A stretch of 38,260 nt of DNA, from contig JBBQQJ010000003.1 in assembly GCA_038216165.1 (NCBI GenBank), positions 1 through 38,260 on the forward strand, given 5' to 3'. Position 1 is the stretch's first letter; every line of letters starts with the position of its first letter. Positions 518-5,964 of the stretch are shown in pieces. A program made the position numbers and the translations under genes. The stretch comes from Gemmatimonadales bacterium (lineage in GTDB: Bacteria; Gemmatimonadota; Gemmatimonadetes; Gemmatimonadales; GWC2-71-9). Below the pieces are notes generated by a model. That model worked only from the letters and a program-made list of their open reading frames with translations, had not been told where the DNA came from and searched no databases.

Positions 518-2197
518 ATGCACTCCACCTTTGCCTCGCTCGGCCTGTCGCCGGTGCTCGTCGATGCCCTCACCGGCCTCGGATATGAAGAACCGACCCC
601 GGTCCAGCAGGCCGCCATCCCGCACCTGCTCGAAGGGCGCGACATCCTCGCCCAGGCAGCGACGGGGACGGGCAAGACCGCCGCCTTTGCACTTCCCCTG
701 CTCCAGCGGCTGCCGCAGACGGCCCCGGAGCCCTCCAAGCCCGCGATTCTGGTGTTGACCCCGACCCGCGAACTCGCGGTGCAGGTGGCCGAGGCGTTCC
801 ACCGATATGGCCGGGCACTGGGCGCACTGACGGTGCCGATCTACGGCGGTCAGGAGTTCTCGCAACAGATCCGCGTCCTCCGGCGCGGGGTGCACGTGGT
901 GGTCGCGACCCCGGGTCGGGCGCTCGACCACATGCGCCGCAACACGCTCGACCTCAGCAGCCTGATGGCCGTGGTGCTCGACGAGGCCGACGAGATGCTC
1001 GACATGGGCTTCGCCGACGAGATCGAGGCGATCCTCGAGGCAACGCCGGAGGGGCGCCAGACCGCGCTCTTCTCCGCCACGATGGCACCGCGCATCGCGA
1101 AGATCGCCAAGAAGCACTTGCGCGATCCAGCCCAGGTATTGGTGGCGCAGGAGGCGACCGCCGCCGGCGAGATGCCGAAGGTCCGCCAGACGGCGTACGT
1201 CGTGGCGCGCGGCCAGAAGGTGCAGGCGCTCGGGCGAGTGCTCGACCTCGAGGCGCCGACGCTCGCGCTGATCTTCTGCCGCACCCGCAATGAGGTCGAT
1301 GCCCTCGCCGAGTCGCTTGGCGGCCGCGGCTACCAGGTGCAGGCGCTGCACGGCGGGATGACGCAGGACCAGCGTGATCGGGTGATGAAGCGCACGCGTG
1401 GCGGTACGGTGGACATCCTCGTCGCGACCGACGTCGCGGCACGCGGGCTCGACATCGAGCAGATCACCCACGTGGTGAACTTCAACGTGCCCGAATCACC
1501 GGCGGCGTACGTGCACCGGATCGGGCGCACCGGACGCGCCGGTCGCGAGGGCGTGGCGATCACCTTCGCCGAGCCGCGCGAGCACCGGATGATCAAGAAC
1601 ATCGAGCAGCTCACTCGGCAAAAGGTCGAGATCGCGCGGCTCCCGACGGTGCTCGACGTGCGCAACAAGCAACTCGAGGTGACGCGCGCGTCAATCCGCG
1701 AGGCGATTCTCGGCGGCGACCTCGACGGCTACCGCGTGGTGGTCGAGTCGCTGGCGGAGGAGCACGACATCATGGACATCGCCACCGCCGCGGTGAAGCT
1801 GGCGCACCAGGCGGAAGTGGGCGCGATCGAGGAGGCGGAGATCGAGCAGCCGCCGCTGCAGCGCGAGCGACCGGGGGTGAGTGCGCGCAGCAGCAGCAGC
1901 AGCGGGCCGCGCAGTCGCGAGACCGCCGCGCCGCGCAAGCGTTCGGTGGGGATGTCGCGGATCTACATCGGCAGCGGCCGAAAGGACAACATGCGGCCCG
2001 CCGACCTCGTGGGTGCGATCGCCAACGAGGCGCAGATCGAGGCGAAGCAGATCGGTTCGATCGAGATCACCGACCGCTTCTCGCTGGTGGAACTGCCCGA
2101 GGAACTGGTGGATAGCGTGATCGCCGCGCTGCGGGCGACGAAGATCAAGGGGAAGCGGCAGACAGTGCGGCGCGACATGGCGACGAAGCGGGCGTAG
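518..2197 (+). CDS. deaD: ATP-dependent DEAD-box RNA helicase, DeaD/CsdA type with C-terminal DbpA-like RNA-binding domain
   Basis: Q motif (GYEEPTPVQ), ATGTGKT, PTRELA, DEAD, SAT and HRIGRTGRAG motifs; C-terminal GSGRKDNMRPADLVGAI...IGSIEI region is typical of DbpA domains. Confidence 0.92.
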   Translation: MHSTFASLGLSPVLVDALTGLGYEEPTPVQQAAIPHLLEGRDILAQAATGTGKTAAFALPLLQRLPQTAPEPSKPAILVLTPTRELAVQVAEAFHRYGRALGALTVPIYGGQEFSQQIRVLRRGVHVVVATPGRALDHMRRNTLDLSSLMAVVLDEADEMLDMGFADEIEAILEATPEGRQTALFSATMAPRIAKIAKKHLRDPAQVLVAQEATAAGEMPKVRQTAYVVARGQKVQALGRVLDLEAPTLALIFCRTRNEVDALAESLGGRGYQVQALHGGMTQDQRDRVMKRTRGGTVDILVATDVAARGLDIEQITHVVNFNVPESPAAYVHRIGRTGRAGREGVAITFAEPREHRMIKNIEQLTRQKVEIARLPTVLDVRNKQLEVTRASIREAILGGDLDGYRVVVESLAEEHDIMDIATAAVKLAHQAEVGAIEEAEIEQPPLQRERPGVSARSSSSSGPRSRETAAPRKRSVGMSRIYIGSGRKDNMRPADLVGAIANEAQIEAKQIGSIEITDRFSLVELPEELVDSVIAALRATKIKGKRQTVRRDMATKRA

Positions 2198-2203
2198 CTG
2201 AAT

Positions 2204-2242
2204 AAAGAGAGAAAGAGAGAAGGAGAGAAAGAGAGAAAGAAA
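2204..2242 (+). repeat. Purine-only (AAAGAGAG)n tandem tract; left half of an inverted pair with 4916-4949
   Basis: aaagagagaaagagagaaggagagaaagagagaaagaaa begins 6 nt after the deaD stop codon. Confidence 0.9.
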
Positions 2243-2261
2243 TCCTCGTCCCGAACGGACC

Positions 2262-2398
2262 CCCTCGTCCCGAACGCAGTGCTTGTCCCGAGCCTAGCGA
2301 GGGAAGGGACCTCGGCTGGTGCCACCATCCGGGCCCCTGACTATCGAGGTCGATCATTCCGCCAGCGCAGAGGTCCCTCACTGCGTTCGGGACGAGGG
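2262..2398. repeat. REPIN-like palindromic element copy R1 (137 bp = 114-bp unit + 23-bp insert at 2282-2304); preceded by a 14-bp partial arm at 2244-2257
   Basis: Left arm ccctcgtcccgaacgcagtg[insert]agggacctc, right arm gaggtccctcactgcgttcgggacgaggg; the core is nearly identical to R2 and R4. Confidence 0.92.
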
Positions 2399-2409
2399 AA
2401 CAGTCAGCC

Positions 2410-2742
2410 CTACGACCCCAGCACGTACCCGATCACCGCACCGATCAGCCCCACACCAGCCGCCAAGACCGCGGCCCGGAACGTCCCGGCGGGTACCTCG
2501 ACCACGTCGCGGACTACGGTGTAGCCGAGGACAGCACCGACGACACCTCCCACGATCGTCCAGGTGCGCTGGCGTTTGGATTTCATCTCACTGATCGCAC
2601 CTGACGGAATTTGGCGTGAATCAATGACGACTTCCGTCTGTGGCTGGCTCAAACCGATCCGTGTGCTCGATTGGCCGATGAGTCGATCCAGGGGTGCGCA
2701 CGTCAAGACGAGCGCGAGGAGTACGGACGAGATCTTGATCAT
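2410..2742 (-). CDS. Small hypothetical exported/membrane protein with C-terminal glycine-rich hydrophobic helices (alternative start 2754)
   Basis: MIKISSVLLALVLTCAPL signal-like N-terminus, then IVGGVVGAVLGY and GVGLIGAVIGYVLGS glycine-zipper-like helices. The ORF-track N-terminal extension runs through repeat R2 and is probably not real. Low GC (29/60 at 2581-2640, hand count). Confidence 0.65.
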   Translation of the reverse strand: MIKISSVLLALVLTCAPLDRLIGQSSTRIGLSQPQTEVVIDSRQIPSGAISEMKSKRQRTWTIVGGVVGAVLGYTVVRDVVEVPAGTFRAAVLAAGVGLIGAVIGYVLGS

Positions 2743-2785
2743 TTCAGCAACCATGTACGCCTTTGAGTTGCGTCGATGCGCCGGT

Positions 2786-2899
2786 CCCTCGTCCCGACCG
2801 TAGGGAGGGACCTCGGCCGGTGCCACCATCCGGGCCCCTGACTATCGAGGTCGATCATTCCGCAAGCGCAGAGGTCCCTCACTGCGTTCGGGACGAGGG
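2786..2899. repeat. REPIN-like palindromic element copy R2 (114 bp)
   Basis: 29-bp arms ccctcgtcccgaccgtagggagggacctc / gaggtccctcactgcgttcgggacgaggg around a 56-bp core. Confidence 0.93.
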
Positions 2900-3004
2900 T
2901 GCTCCGAGTGGCCGCTAAACTCTACCATGGAATCTCCATAGTTTACCTTAGCTCCTAAACCACACCATGGGGTGCGCTTTCAGCGCAATCTGTCTCCCGC
3001 CCCC

Positions 3005-4159
3005 CTACCGTTCCCCCGCTCCAACCAACCTCGGCATCACCACCACCCACGTCGGATCGTAGGGATCCGAGTCCGCTGCGCGGCCCAACAGGACACCTCG
3101 ACCGGTGCCACCCCAGAGGGAACGGTCGAACTGCTGGAAGGCGACCAGCGTCCCGCGGACCGGGTCGATGACCTCGATCCGGGTGTCGGTGTAGTGCGCG
3201 GGATTTGTGATTCTCGGTGCGATTGCCTCGCCGGTCCCGTCCCGGCGCCCGCTCTGCGGAGCGGCCGCGATCGCTGTGCGCCAGCGTGGATCAGGGACGC
3301 GCAGGACCACCCAGAGCAGGCCCGCATCGTCCTGCCAGAAGCCGACAACCCTGGATTGCGGCGGGCGGTCCGCGGAGGGGCGGACGACACCGGTGGCGGG
3401 GAACGGCGGATACCACGGCGCGTCCCGGTCAATCACCCGTCGTGGGGTCCGTTCTCCGACACCCCACAGCTCGACTGAATAGCTGCCGTTCTCGCGGAAA
3501 ACCCAGACTTCATCGGGGCGACTGCCACTGGCGCGCGTCGTGAAGAACCGCATGCGCCAATGCTCGGTGGGTCGCAGGTTGCCCTGCTTGGTGCCAAACG
3601 AACGCCCCATCACTCCCTGGCGCGAGAGCTCATGAAACGGATACCCGATCCGGTCAGCCTGCCCGACGACCTCATTCAGCACGAAGCGACCGTCAGCGGT
3701 TTCCACCGGGTTGCCGAGCCCCGACGGAGCGCGGAACGAGCGGACAAACCGCCCATCGGGGGAGAGCACACTGGCGCGCTGGAGCATCGGATCGAACAGC
3801 AGCAAGGAATCGCCGCGGGTCACGAGGATGTTCCGGAGCATCCTGAACTCGCCGGGGCCTTCGCCGGCCCGTTCCCACCCGCGCACGAACTGGCCCGTCG
3901 GTGAGAACAGCATGTACTCCGACGGGGGGCCGAACGCCAGATGGATTCGACCGGCGCCATCGACGTTCACGTCGGCCGGAATACCAGGCATGCCCGCTGG
4001 AGGTGCGGCGAGTTCAACGGTGCGGTCGAGCACGATGCGGCAGGCAGCGCACGCGGCCTTGTCCGCAATGGTGATTCTCTGTTGCGCCGCGACCGAACCG
4101 CCAACGATCAGGGTGACTGCCATCACGCACGCGACGATGCGCATCACTTTACCGAACAC
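3005..4159 (-). CDS. Secreted 6-bladed beta-propeller (NHL/TolB-like) protein; start GTG 4159 (GGAGG upstream) or ATG 4144
   Basis: Signal peptide MRIVACVMAVTLIVGGSVAA-Q; the GEGPGEFR motif, GDSLLLFD and SPDGRFVRSF blades are typical of this propeller family. Confidence 0.75.
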   Translation of the reverse strand: MFGKVMRIVACVMAVTLIVGGSVAAQQRITIADKAACAACRIVLDRTVELAAPPAGMPGIPADVNVDGAGRIHLAFGPPSEYMLFSPTGQFVRGWERAGEGPGEFRMLRNILVTRGDSLLLFDPMLQRASVLSPDGRFVRSFRAPSGLGNPVETADGRFVLNEVVGQADRIGYPFHELSRQGVMGRSFGTKQGNLRPTEHWRMRFFTTRASGSRPDEVWVFRENGSYSVELWGVGERTPRRVIDRDAPWYPPFPATGVVRPSADRPPQSRVVGFWQDDAGLLWVVLRVPDPRWRTAIAAAPQSGRRDGTGEAIAPRITNPAHYTDTRIEVIDPVRGTLVAFQQFDRSLWGGTGRGVLLGRAADSDPYDPTWVVVMPRLVGAGER

Positions 4160-4215
4160 GGCGGTCCTCCGGATGTAGAGTTTCCGATTGATCACCACCA
4201 TCATCACTGCCCGAT

Positions 4216-4329
4216 CCCTCGTCCCGAACGAAGGGAGGGACCTCTGCCGGTGCCACCATCCGGTACCGTTGCCACCAAGGTCGATCATTCCGCCAGGGCA
4301 GAGGTCCCTCCCTCCGGTCGGGACGAGGG
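4216..4329. repeat. REPIN-like palindromic element copy R3 (114 bp, most diverged core)
   Basis: Arms ccctcgtcccgaacgaagggagggacctctgcc / ggcagaggtccctccctccggtcgggacgaggg. Confidence 0.92.
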
Positions 4330-4344
4330 CCATCGATCAGCCGA

Positions 4345-4737
4345 CTACACCAGCCGCTCCAGCCGACCCTTCCGCTTCACCAGATTCTTGTAGTCCCATT
4401 GGATGTCGCGCCCCTTGGCACACCAACGCTGGAGGTCGGCCGTTCGGACCTGCGCCACATCGGTGAAGGTGACCGACGCGTCCTTGAATTTGGCTCCACG
4501 ATCAACGAGGCCGGGCTCCTCAAACGACTGGCCGCTCCAGAACATCAGCCGCACGCCGTCCTTGAGCTTGCTGTACCCCGCGATCGGGTTGCCATCCAGA
4601 AACCAGACCGGGTGCGCGTGCCACACCTTCTGCTCGGCATCGGGAAGGTGGCGGCTGATCTCCGCCGCGAGGAGCTCGCAGATGGCGCGATCAGCCGGGG
4701 CGAGCCCGTCGTGGTAACGAGCGATGTCAGGGTGCAT
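4345..4737 (-). CDS. DUF1801 (YdhG-like) domain protein (alternative GTG start 4752)
   Basis: EQKVWHAHPVWFLDGNPIAGYSKLKDGVRLMFWSGQSFEEPGL...IQWDYKNLVKRKGRLERL is a recognisable DUF1801 subfamily signature. Confidence 0.85.
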   Translation of the reverse strand: MHPDIARYHDGLAPADRAICELLAAEISRHLPDAEQKVWHAHPVWFLDGNPIAGYSKLKDGVRLMFWSGQSFEEPGLVDRGAKFKDASVTFTDVAQVRTADLQRWCAKGRDIQWDYKNLVKRKGRLERLV

Positions 4738-4793
4738 GGATGCTGGCGACACGGTGCCTCCCTGGGCAAACGTCATTTCAGAGCACTGTGGAC

Positions 4794-4907
4794 CCCTCGT
4801 CCCGAACGCAGTGAGGGACCTCGGCCGGTGCCACCACCCGGTCCCCTGACTATCGAGGTCTATCATTCCGCAAGCGCAGAGGTCCCTCACTGCGTTCGGG
4901 ACGAGGG
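4794..4907. repeat. REPIN-like palindromic element copy R4 (114 bp, perfect 29-bp arms)
   Basis: ccctcgtcccgaacgcagtgagggacctc ... gaggtccctcactgcgttcgggacgaggg. Confidence 0.93.
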
Positions 4908-4915
4908 GGTATGCC

Positions 4916-4949
4916 TTCTCTCTTTCTCTCTTTCTCTCTTTCTCTCTTT
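4916..4949 (-). repeat. Pyrimidine tract, (AAAGAGAG)x4 on the minus strand; right half of the inverted pair with 2204-2242
   Basis: ttctctctttctctctttctctctttctctcttt overlaps the ltaE TAA stop codon. Confidence 0.9.
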
Positions 4950-5964
4950 ACAGCTTTCCTAGCAGCGCATCCACATCATCACTGTCCGTCGCCCACGAGC
5001 ACATCAGCCGCACCTCGTGGCGCGTCTCGTCCCACTCGTAAAAGTGGAAATCCCGTTGCAGCCGCTCGATCATCTCCGGCGCCATCAGCGCGAACACCGC
5101 GTTCGCCTCCACCTGCTGCGTGACCGTGATGCCCTTCGCCGAGAGCCCCGCCGCGAGTCGCTGCGCCATTGAGTTCGCTTGCCGAGCATTGTCGAGCCAG
5201 AGATCGTGCTCCGCCAGCGCCACCACCTGTGCCGCCAGGAAGCGCATCTTGGACGCCAACTGGGTGGACTGCTTCCGGATGTACTTGAACTGCGGCACCA
5301 GTGCGGGGTTCAGCAACACCACCGCCTCTGCACCGATCGCCCCGTTCTTGGTGAGTCCGAAGGAGAGCGCATCGACCCCGGTATCGGTGATCAGCTCGCG
5401 CAACGTCACGTCGAGCGATGCGGCGGCGTTGGCGATCCGCGCACCATCCACGTGCACCAGCAGGCCGTGGCCGTATGCCTCCGCCACCAGCGCGCCGAGT
5501 CCGTCCACCGTGTAGGCCGTGCCATACTCGGTGGTCTGCGTGAGCGAGAGCACCCGCGGCTGCACGTGATGCTCGAACCCGACGCCCTTGAGCGCCGCGG
5601 CGCGCACCTGTTCCACCGTGAGTTTGGCATCAACGCTGGGCAGGTCAAGCAGTTTGCATCCGCCGAGCAACTCGGGCGCACCGCACTCGTCCACGTGGAT
5701 GTGCGCCTGGTCGCTGCAGATGACGGCCTCCCACGGCCGAGTCATCGCGCGCAATGCACTGACGTTGGCCCCGGTGCCGTTCCACACCAGGAACGATTCC
5801 GCGTGCCCACCGAACTGATCCTTGAACCACGCCTCGGCACGCCGGGTCCAGACGTCATTGCCGTAGGCGCCCGCGCTGTCGGCATTGGCCGCCACCATCG
5901 CGTCGAGCACCACCGGGTGCGCGGGCGCGGCGTTGTCGCTGCGGAACTCTCCGGGCAGGCTCAC
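4948..5964 (-). CDS. ltaE: Low-specificity L-threonine aldolase (PLP-dependent)
   Basis: FRSDN, AYGND, GTGAN, HIHVDECGAPE, HVDGARIANA and SFGLTKNG (PLP lysine) motifs. Confidence 0.88.
   Translation of the reverse strand: MSLPGEFRSDNAAPAHPVVLDAMVAANADSAGAYGNDVWTRRAEAWFKDQFGGHAESFLVWNGTGANVSALRAMTRPWEAVICSDQAHIHVDECGAPELLGGCKLLDLPSVDAKLTVEQVRAAALKGVGFEHHVQPRVLSLTQTTEYGTAYTVDGLGALVAEAYGHGLLVHVDGARIANAAASLDVTLRELITDTGVDALSFGLTKNGAIGAEAVVLLNPALVPQFKYIRKQSTQLASKMRFLAAQVVALAEHDLWLDNARQANSMAQRLAAGLSAKGITVTQQVEANAVFALMAPEMIERLQRDFHFYEWDETRHEVRLMCSWATDSDDVDALLGKL

What the first reader, a model, noticed from the sequence alone, without database searches (positions are those of the whole stretch)
2198..4950. 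Cassette-like array: four co-oriented palindromic elements alternating with single cargo genes, with no recombinase nearby
Seen: R1 (2262-2398), R2 (2786-2899), R3 (4216-4329) and R4 (4794-4907) share 29-bp inverted arms and an asymmetric 56-bp core, all in the same orientation. Exactly one minus-strand gene lies between each pair (glycine-zipper protein, secreted beta-propeller, DUF1801). Two of the genes stop only 11 and 15 nt from the next element, part of the cargo is low-GC, and I found no copy in the other 35 kb. Known: integrons alternate one gene with one folded attC site, and REPINs are paired REP palindromes mobilised in trans by RAYT HUH transposases. Inference: this fits neither exactly, because there are no attC RYYYAAC/GTTRRRY cores and REPINs are not normally described as delimiting gene cassettes. 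It could be an undescribed repeat-delimited gene capture/shuffling system at the deaD-ltaE junction, with its enzyme encoded elsewhere. This is the best candidate for a new system in the window.
Basis: partly seen in the sequence, partly recalled or inferred. Interest (0 to 1): 0.85.

Follow-up and report, generated by a model that had tools for sequence, protein, structure and literature searches.

The report
REP-doublet hairpins behind five neighbouring genes
The four palindromes are copies of a hairpin repeat that sits just after stop codons throughout related soil Gemmatimonadales genomes; here they follow each gene of a small variable gene islet, and nothing shows that they capture genes.

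Summary
Four co-oriented 114-nt palindromes (86-97% alike) alternate with three minus-strand genes between deaD and ltaE, and no copy lies elsewhere in the window.

They are not a new cassette system. Each unit is a doublet of a small REP-type hairpin (GTCCC-GA-x-CGnAG-x'-GA-GGGAC). Its x/x' pair covaries within each arm: 183 of 187 arms are paired, against 102 expected. The family is spread through Gemmatimonadales genomes. A congener has about 50 loci, mostly single and lying between convergent or co-directional genes, without target duplications.

The genome's integron integrase lies on another contig beside classical attC sites that look nothing like these units. In ten loci of other congeners, homologues of the cargo genes carry no such element.

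The deaD-ltaE gap is truly variable, with no cargo gene, one gene or three genes in the three species that share the junction. The four copies also share a private core, so they were copied or homogenised locally. No enzyme for the family was found: the only RAYT-type transposases in relatives pair with a different REP.

Verdict: an undescribed member of the known REP/REPIN kind, packed into a variable islet. Interest is low to moderate.

The parts
2204..2240 (+). Tandem array of an 8-nt purine unit (AAAGAGAG x4.6). It starts a few bases after the deaD stop codon and forms the left arm of an outer inverted frame.
   Evidence: (I1, I12). The same kind of tract lies directly between stop codons and copies of the element in G013.
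2243..2257 (+). Truncated extra arm (the first 15 nt of the REP arm, 1 mismatch).
   Evidence: (D4).
2262..2398 (+). R1: REP doublet with a second small hairpin nested in the left arm. It is shared by the convergent 3' ends of deaD and gene A.
   Evidence: A copy with the same nested architecture lies at G000 C101:6031-6148.
2413..2742 (-). Gene A: a 110-aa protein with a signal-peptide-like N terminus and a Gly-rich C terminus. It has no family assignment and is nearly unique in the genus.
   Evidence: One search finds weak matches in 3 of 51 other congeners.
2786..2899 (+). R2: REP doublet whose two arms are of different types (a heterodimer).
3008..4144 (-). Gene B: a 379-aa secreted protein, probably a six-bladed beta-propeller. 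It belongs to a large family of paralogues in this genus.
   Evidence: sub-threshold DUF5128 match. One search shows up to 32 matches per genome; the best is 60% identity in G014, the rest at most 32% over near-full-length matches (short partial matches reach 48%).
4216..4329 (+). R3: the most diverged copy (86%). Its left arm carries the only A/G mismatch at the covarying pair.
4348..4737 (-). Gene C: a 130-aa DUF1801 protein with patchy distribution in the genus.
   Evidence: One search finds it in 9 of 51 other congeners at 65-78% identity. Searches show that homology between species is confined to the ORF and the flanks differ.
4794..4907 (+). R4: the most perfect hairpin (29 uninterrupted pairs). 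It lies between gene C's start region and the ltaE 3' end.
   Evidence: I3; -45.5 kcal/mol, z -10.4.
4916..4949 (+). Tandem array TTCTCTCT x4.2, the inverse complement of the left tract. It ends in the ltaE stop codon (TTA at 4948-4950).

Best explanation
Each unit is a REPIN-like doublet: two inverted copies of a small REP hairpin separated by a spacer of about 50 nt.

The REP monomer has this layout: a CCTC tag, then a stem GTCCC/GGGAC, a tandem G.A/A.G pair, one covarying Watson-Crick pair x-x', and a 5-nt loop CGnAG. By this layout it belongs with the CGTC/CCTC-tagged REPs.

The family is native to a clade of Gemmatimonadales. There it sits directly behind stop codons, often preceded by a tandem 8-nt purine array.

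In the window, every one of five consecutive gene ends (deaD, A, B, C, ltaE) is followed by a copy. The four copies share a private spacer, so they arose from each other locally, by copying or gene conversion, after or while a small accessory islet built up in the convergent deaD-ltaE gap.

Inferred, not shown:
- The units are transcribed as the 3' ends of the mRNAs and act as strong hairpins that protect or end transcripts.
- They spread as non-autonomous single-strand hairpin elements, using an enzyme that I could not identify.
- The islet's gene content turns over by ordinary recombination, as in the 'minimal mobile elements' of Neisseria. The repeats at most supply short stretches of portable homology.
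For: 1. Anatomy: arms and spacer are aligned. The x-x' pair is G-C in 104, A-T in 38 and C-G in 38 of 187 distinct arms, so 183 are paired against 102 expected if the two positions were independent. The two arms of one unit often carry different pairs. The conserved structure is therefore the small hairpin of each arm, not only the long hairpin.

The reversed-pattern control gives 0 in all four. Exact arm matches occur in 77 loci of public genomes, nearly all Gemmatimonadales assemblies.

3. Position: in G013, classifiable copies lie between convergent, co-directional and divergent genes in 10, 8 and 1 cases. No target duplication is seen in 20 copies.

4. The literature describes exactly this for REPs: location under 20 bp from 3' ends, dimers of unlike units, spacers of 20-100 bp, a tag changed to CCTC, stems of 8-9 and loops of 4-5, and no dedicated transposase for the CGTC class (PMC3733652; abstract and sections 6, 14 and 15 read). 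REPIN is defined as two inverted REPs forming a hairpin (PMC3116915, passages).

5. Not attC: the integron integrase lies on contig C91 (383 bits, cut-off 265) next to a classical ATAAC...GTTAG site. The G013 integron array has classical sites as well.

6. Cargo homologues in 10 loci of congeners carry no REP-type motif.

7. All three species with the deaD-ltaE junction have a REP doublet or a remnant of one in the gap.
Against: 1. No enzyme was found. No Y1_Tnp gene was found in G000 (0 hits; the genome is 90% complete). The single copies in G013 and G042 are flanked by a different palindrome, GTCGCTnnAGCGAC.

2. Four near-identical copies lie within 2.7 kb and no other full copy is in the assembly. 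That is far from random dispersal, and I only infer how the local copying happened.

3. In Pseudomonas, REPs avoid recently acquired regions ('REP deserts'; PMC3390384, passages). Here they are packed among accessory genes.

4. In G013 the loci are clustered: 12 neighbour gaps are under 6 kb against 4.8 expected (P 0.004). Genes between clustered loci are less often shared with G000, 8 of 17 against 130 of 165. That count is confounded, because G000 contigs break at such repeats.

5. Transcription, termination and mobility were not tested at all.
Confidence: 0.68

Rival explanations
1. The repeats are the recombination sites of a cassette system. Single genes carrying one REP doublet would be inserted, excised or exchanged at resident doublets. 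The mechanism would be either a site-specific enzyme encoded elsewhere or homologous recombination across the 110-nt units. Either route would build an integron-like array inside what was once a single doublet between the two 8-nt tandem arrays.
For: - The outer copies R1 and R4 abut the purine and pyrimidine arrays. In G013 such arrays normally frame one single doublet. This is the layout expected if genes entered a resident doublet.
- The gap holds different cargo in G000 and G013 and none in G042.
- A second clean case exists. G013 has element, a 467-aa gene and a half element where G000 has a different small ORF.
- The G013 loci are clustered.
- A comparable hypothesis was published for the dRS3/NIME repeats of Neisseria (PMC1797815, passages).
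Against: - Cargo homologues in 10 loci of congeners have no REP motif.
- DUF1801 moves between contexts as a bare ORF, without the element.
- Most copies are single and sit between conserved genes.
- The ars operon framed by two copies in G013 lies at the syntenic place in G000 without any copy.
- No enzyme was found.
- No second instance of any gene-plus-element unit was found.
Confidence: 0.14
2. The array is a cluster of attC sites lacking an integrase (a CALIN), serviced by the integron integrase on contig C91.
For: - One folded palindrome follows each co-oriented ORF.
- Spacing after two of the ORFs is short.
- A true integron integrase is present in the genome.
Against: - The arms are 29-33 nearly uninterrupted pairs, with no two-box layout and no extrahelical bases.
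- The AAC/GTT-like triplet lies 10-13 nt inside the arm. It is the covarying x position and reads GACC or GAGC in other arms.
- The attC sites beside the integrases of G000 and G013 are classical and unrelated in sequence.
- The units occur singly behind core genes.
- IntegronFinder itself could not be run.
Confidence: 0.03
3. The order of the islet is an assembly artefact: a metagenome assembler joined pieces from different places or strains at the repeats.
For: - G000 is a 343-contig assembly with 7% estimated contamination.
- Contigs of this assembly end at such repeats.
- I could not lay reads on the region.
Against: - The copies differ by 3-14%, so each junction is unique sequence.
- deaD and ltaE flank the islet exactly as in G042 and G013.
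- One public soil run holds 0.49 of the sampled words of the stretch.
Confidence: 0.05

Closest known systems
REPINs (REP doublets forming hairpins) of Pseudomonas and enterobacteria, mobilised by RAYT transposases (PMC3116915, PMC3337134)
   Same: - Two inverted REP hairpins with a spacer fold into one long hairpin.
- The units are extragenic, dispersed and confined to a clade, and make no target duplication.
- Singlet remnants and nested variants occur.
   Different: - There are tens of copies per genome, not hundreds.
- No cognate RAYT was found: the Y1 genes of relatives are flanked by another REP.
- Known REPIN clusters are tandem copies within one gap, of up to about 700 bp. They are not copies alternating with genes.
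CGTC-tagged REP superfamily (Di Nocera et al. 2013, PMC3733652), which includes the Neisseria dRS3 repeats
   Same: - The tag is CCTC, a variant named in the paper.
- The stem has 8 positions and the loop 5 nt.
- The dimers are made of unlike units, with spacers of 20-100 bp.
- The units lie within about 20 bp of 3' ends.
- No dedicated transposase is known.
   Different: - The first stem pair is G-C rather than A-T. The sister variant in the same genomes, TCATCCC...GGGAT, has A-T.
- Two stem positions are G.A mismatches.
- The paper lists no Gemmatimonadetes (0 occurrences of the word).
- I could not see its Figure 2 consensus sequences, so assignment to one of its four families is open.
Neisseria minimal mobile elements and NIME arrays (PMC1797815)
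   Same: - Alternative small gene sets sit at one syntenic site between conserved genes.
- Intergenic repeat arrays are proposed there to promote exchange with incoming DNA.
   Different: - NIME arrays are non-coding stacks of 20-bp dRS3 repeats with RS spacers.
- Natural transformation is established in Neisseria and unknown here.
Integron cassette arrays and CALINs
   Same: - One palindromic site follows each co-oriented ORF.
- An integrase is encoded elsewhere in the genome.
   Different: - The units lack the attC box structure and extrahelical bases.
- The units are dispersed singly.
- The resident integron uses classical attC sites.

Membership tests
REPIN / REP | [quoted passage not shown] | tested here: met
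   The definition comes from PMC3116915 passages.
REPIN / REP | Many dispersed copies in extragenic space of one genome or clade | tested here: met
   One search gives 25-82 arms per genome with a reversed control of 0. One search gives 77 loci. Copy number is low for the class.
REPIN / REP | A cognate single-copy RAYT (Y1 transposase) flanked by the same REP | tested here: not met
   PF01797 gives 0 hits in G000 and 1 each in G013 and G042. Both genes are flanked by GTCGCTnnAGCGAC palindromes, not by this REP. G000 is only 90% complete.
REPIN / REP | Evidence of movement: filled against empty sites, or excision | tested here: inconclusive
   Copies are present in G013 and absent at syntenic gaps of G000. 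The gaps differ in more than the element, so no clean empty site was obtained.
CGTC-tagged REP superfamily | Unpaired terminal tag CGTC (or TGTC or CCTC), a stem of 8-9, a loop of 4-5 and a short tail | tested here: inconclusive
   The tag CCTC, an 8-position stem (two positions are G.A) and the 5-nt loop CGnAG are seen. A-T at the first two stem positions holds only in the sister variant. The consensus figure of the paper was not available.
Integron attC / CALIN | R''-L''...L'-R' boxes with an unpaired central spacer and extrahelical bases, and conserved AAC/GTT at the site ends (features recalled, not taken from a call) | tested here: not met
   The stems are uninterrupted over 29-33 pairs. 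The AAC-like triplet is internal and variable. Classical sites in this genome and in G013 differ. The IntegronFinder model was not run.
Integron attC / CALIN | Sites occur in arrays with cassettes, not singly behind core genes | tested here: not met
   Most G013 copies are single and lie between conserved genes.
MITE with DDE-type ends | Terminal inverted repeats plus a target-site duplication | tested here: not met
   No duplication flanks any of 20 full copies.
Xer-dependent dif modules | 28-bp XerC-spacer-XerD sites in alternating orientation around gene modules (feature recalled) | not tested
   No dif-like site was searched for with a model. A small palindrome in the spacer of R1 and R2 is broken in R3 and R4.

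The most novel reading that the evidence does not exclude
In this Gemmatimonadales clade, REP doublets framed by tandem 8-nt arrays are landing pads. Single accessory genes are inserted or swapped at them, by an unidentified hairpin-specific enzyme or by recombination across the 110-nt units. A single terminator-like doublet between two convergent core genes can thus grow into an integron-like array without an integrase. This would be a working example of what was only hypothesised for the dRS3/NIME repeats of Neisseria.
Probability: 0.12. Interest if true: 0.7.

Novelty: new member of a known kind. Interest (0 to 1): 0.3.

Why it matters
As it stands, the result explains an eye-catching 'cassette array' as ordinary repeat biology. 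It also adds a REP family, with clear covariation support for its hairpin, to a phylum for which my searches found no description of such repeats. One search returned 3 papers holding both terms, none on the subject, and the word does not occur in PMC3733652.

Three points may interest specialists:
- This REP class has no matching transposase, although a RAYT with its own, different REP is present in relatives.
- The doublets are regularly nested between stop-codon-anchored tandem 8-nt arrays.
- They are packed into a variable islet, the opposite of the 'REP desert' rule of Pseudomonas.

If the repeats did help genes to enter such gaps, that would be a new route of gene gain in soil bacteria. 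The evidence here does not show it.

Tried and rejected
- **Rfam:** a scan of 1800-5400 at E <= 1 gave only chance microRNA and lncRNA matches below threshold.
- **Private spacer in metagenomes:** an exact-pattern scan of metagenome contigs for the spacer of the four copies gave 0 hits.
- **ltaE relatives in metagenome contigs:** 80 loci were kept, none close enough to show the gap. The best full match is 69%, and the one 83% match is cut before the gap.
- **Sequencing runs:** one soil run holds 0.49 of the words and one salt-lake run 0.16. No read-level test of junctions, circles or assembly was therefore made. The small share in the second run is no evidence of habitat.
- **Promoter and terminator scan of 1900-5300:** 0 promoter-like sites. 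The 4 terminator-like rows all describe one site in the pyrimidine tract, no more than shuffles give.
- **Enzyme among nearby genes:** genes lying between close pairs of copies in G013 encode ordinary functions: DUF3108, LemA, RlmL-type methyltransferase, deoxyhypusine synthase, arsR/arsM/arsC, amidohydrolase and RF3.
- **Residual homology between the gaps:** only the deaD and ltaE ends, the tandem arrays and the arms match between the G000, G013 and G042 gaps.
- **Strict regex for classical attC in G000:** it found 0 sites. A looser regex found the one site beside intI on C91.
- **Earlier notes of this scan:** nothing was held by sequence or by place for this genome.
- **Supplements:** supplementary tables of the papers were not opened. 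They may list REP consensus sequences that bear on the family assignment.
Full report
**What is there.** The four units are real and co-oriented. The family of 114 nt lies at 2285-2398, 2786-2899, 4216-4329 and 4794-4907, with 86-100% identity to the reference copy and inverted arms of 32-33 nt. R1 is longer (2262-2398) because an extra small hairpin is nested in its left arm, and a truncated arm precedes it at 2243-2257. The arm motif occurs 9 times in the 38-kb window, all in this stretch, against 0.41 expected. The units fold very stably as single strands, at -36 to -46 kcal/mol with z-scores of -5.4 to -10.4.

One minus-strand gene lies in each interval:
- A is a 110-aa protein without a family.
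- B is a 379-aa protein with a sub-threshold match to a six-bladed propeller.
- C is a 130-aa DUF1801 protein.

deaD (518-2194, plus strand) and ltaE (4951-5964, minus strand) flank the islet. The array is framed by inverted tandem arrays of an 8-nt unit at 2204-2240 and 4916-4949. The latter runs into the ltaE stop codon.

**What the units are.** I aligned the four copies with 17 full copies from a congener, G013, a Gemmatimonadales assembly. The arms are conserved and the spacer is not. Within each arm two positions covary:
- GA-C-CGnAG-G-GA
- GA-A-CGnAG-T-GA
- GA-G-CGnAG-C-GA

I collected 187 distinct arms with those two positions left free. Of these, 183 form a pair (G-C 104, A-T 38, C-G 38, G-T 3), against 102 expected if the positions were independent. 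The copies are related, so this is not a probability, but three pair types are present. The two arms of one unit often carry different pairs.

The conserved structure is therefore a small hairpin in each arm: stem GTCCC/GGGAC, a tandem G.A, the covarying pair, and the loop CGnAG. The unit is a doublet of such hairpins. This is the definition of a REPIN (PMC3116915, passages).

In register, the monomer carries a CCTC tag, 8 stem positions and a 5-nt loop. [quoted passage not shown] Those REPs have stems of 8-9 and loops of 4-5, mostly form dimers of unlike units with spacers of 20-100 bp, lie within 20 bp of 3' ends, and have no dedicated transposase (PMC3733652; abstract and sections 6, 14 and 15). 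I could not see that paper's consensus figure.

A sister variant one base away, TCATCCC...GGGAT, has a compensating A-T outer pair. It fills the deaD-ltaE gap of G042.

**Distribution.** The reversed control gives 0. Exact matches occur in 77 loci of public genomes, nearly all Gemmatimonadales assemblies. With the whole 114-nt unit as query, 8 of 41 genomes of a 'relatives' draw matched, all in the genus and 0 of 16 in the two other families.

In G013 the classifiable copies lie between convergent, co-directional and divergent genes in 10, 8 and 1 cases. No target duplication flanks any of 20 copies.

Many G013 copies sit between a purine tandem array that starts at a stop codon and its inverse complement. 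Of 120 arms in the fetched loci, 21 had such a tract, nearly all from that genome. Earlier notes of this scan on other Gemmatimonadales genomes describe the same nesting. I treat these as leads that agree with what I saw.

**Integron control.** The genome does encode an integron integrase, on contig C91 at 938-1942 (383 bits, cut-off 265). A classical attC-type site (ATAAC...GTTAG) lies beside it at the contig end. G013 has the same gene followed by an array of toxin-antitoxin-like cassettes with classical sites. These sites bear no likeness to the 114-nt units.

The units have 29-33 nearly uninterrupted pairs, and their 'AAC' is the internal, variable, covarying position. IntegronFinder itself was not available.

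**Enzyme.** No Y1 transposase was found in G000, which is 90% complete. The single Y1 genes of G013 and G042 are flanked on both sides by a different palindrome, GTCGCTnnAGCGAC, so they look like RAYTs of another REP family. Genes between close pairs of copies in G013 are ordinary. The partner of this REP family remains unknown, as the literature reports for the CGTC class.

**The locus in relatives.** Of 52 genomes in the genus, 48 have ltaE and 49 have a DeaD-family helicase match at the thresholds used (in 17 of them only the distant 38-54% paralogue). The two genes are adjacent only in G000, G042 and G013.
- G042 is the closest (DeaD 92%, LtaE 89%). Its gap is 263 nt, with no cargo gene and a doublet of the sister REP variant.
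- G013 has a 1.77-kb gap. It holds the purine array, six bases that look like the start of an arm, a 395-aa Fic-family gene with its own short pyrimidine tract, a low-GC stretch, a half unit and a long pyrimidine array.

Between the G000 and G013 gaps, only the gene ends, the arrays and the arms are alike. The gap is therefore a genuinely variable site. The condition 'same three genes in relatives' is not met.

**The cargo.**
- B belongs to a family with up to 32 matches per genome. Its best relative is 60% identical, in G014.
- C occurs in 9 of 51 other congeners at 65-78%.
- A has weak matches in 3 of 51.

None of the 10 loci holding B or C homologues has a REP-type motif within about 1.5 kb. 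Between species, DNA homology around DUF1801 starts and stops at the ORF in 6 of 8 comparisons, and the flanks differ. This gene therefore changes context on its own, without the element.

**For and against a role in gene turnover.** Four points favour a role:
- R1 and R4 abut the two arrays that elsewhere frame a single doublet.
- The four copies share a spacer found nowhere else in the assembly apart from one half copy on C23.
- G013 loci are clustered, with 12 neighbour gaps under 6 kb against 4.8 expected (P 0.004).
- A clean second case exists in which an element-bounded segment of G013 is replaced by other DNA in G000.

Four points go against a role:
- The arsR-arsM-arsC operon framed by two identical inverted copies in G013 is at the same place in G000 without any copy.
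- Most copies are single.
- The cargo travels without elements elsewhere.
- The lower sharing of genes between clustered copies (8 of 17 against 130 of 165) is confounded. G000 contigs end at such repeats, and one 'missing' gene is release factor 3.

In Pseudomonas, REPs mark old, stable regions and islands are REP deserts (PMC3390384, passages). The packing seen here is therefore unusual for the class. The nearest published idea is the NIME/dRS3 hypothesis and the minimal mobile elements of Neisseria (PMC1797815, passages).

**Verdict.** The units are a previously undescribed family of REP doublets of a known kind, crowded into a small variable islet. Local copying or homogenisation explains their likeness. 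A gene-capture function is not shown; I give it about one chance in eight. The read-level test that could decide this, and could confirm the assembly, could not be made.

Noticed in passing
G000 contig C91:1-1942 (locus L019): An integron integrase gene (938-1942, minus strand; TIGR02249 383 bits) has a classical attC-type site and small cassette-like ORFs on its 3' side. The array is cut off by the contig end. In G013 the array likewise lies beyond the 3' end of intI and begins with a partial duplicate of the integrase 3' end.
   Followed up: partly
L017 (G013 C18:230982-234320) and L018 (G042 C30:13809-17153): The single-copy Y1 (RAYT-like) transposase genes are flanked on both sides by doublets of a GTCGCTnnAGCGAC palindrome. 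This is a second REP family, with its own enzyme, in the same genus.
   Followed up: partly
window 2204-2240 and 4916-4949; G000 C107:1795-1900, C251:99-199, C6:6543-6573: Inverted pairs of tandem 8-nt purine and pyrimidine arrays start at stop codons (TAAAGAGAG...). They occur with or without a REP doublet in the loop. The purine strand reads as repeated Shine-Dalgarno-like AAGGAG/GGAGAG in the 3' untranslated RNA.
   Followed up: partly
L014:3993-4030 and 5696-5730; G000 C107:about 1900-1925: Unrelated genes that abut a pyrimidine array end in similar DNA (CTCTTTACACC...) and similar last residues (..DAGEV*, ..GAV*, ..DAGGV*). The repeat seems to reach into, or to have replaced, the last codons.
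   Followed up: no
window 3008-4144 and the genus-wide search: The secreted propeller protein B belongs to a family greatly expanded in this genus. All 52 genomes match, with up to 32 matches in one genome and several tandem runs such as G062 C16:7367-11392.
   Followed up: no
window 2900-3007 and L014:5230-5340: Low-GC stretches in the G000 and G013 gaps share the 12-mer CCTAAACCACAC, though nothing else in the cargo is alike. This may be chance or a small shared signal.
   Followed up: no
G000 C39:6134-8684 compared with L022:5045-5237: Where G013 has one REP doublet plus a pyrimidine array upstream of the ars operon, G000 has a 2.5-kb insert with two long membrane-protein ORFs. These may be cytochrome bd oxidase subunits; I did not scan them. 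It is another variable gap next to a repeat site.
   Followed up: no
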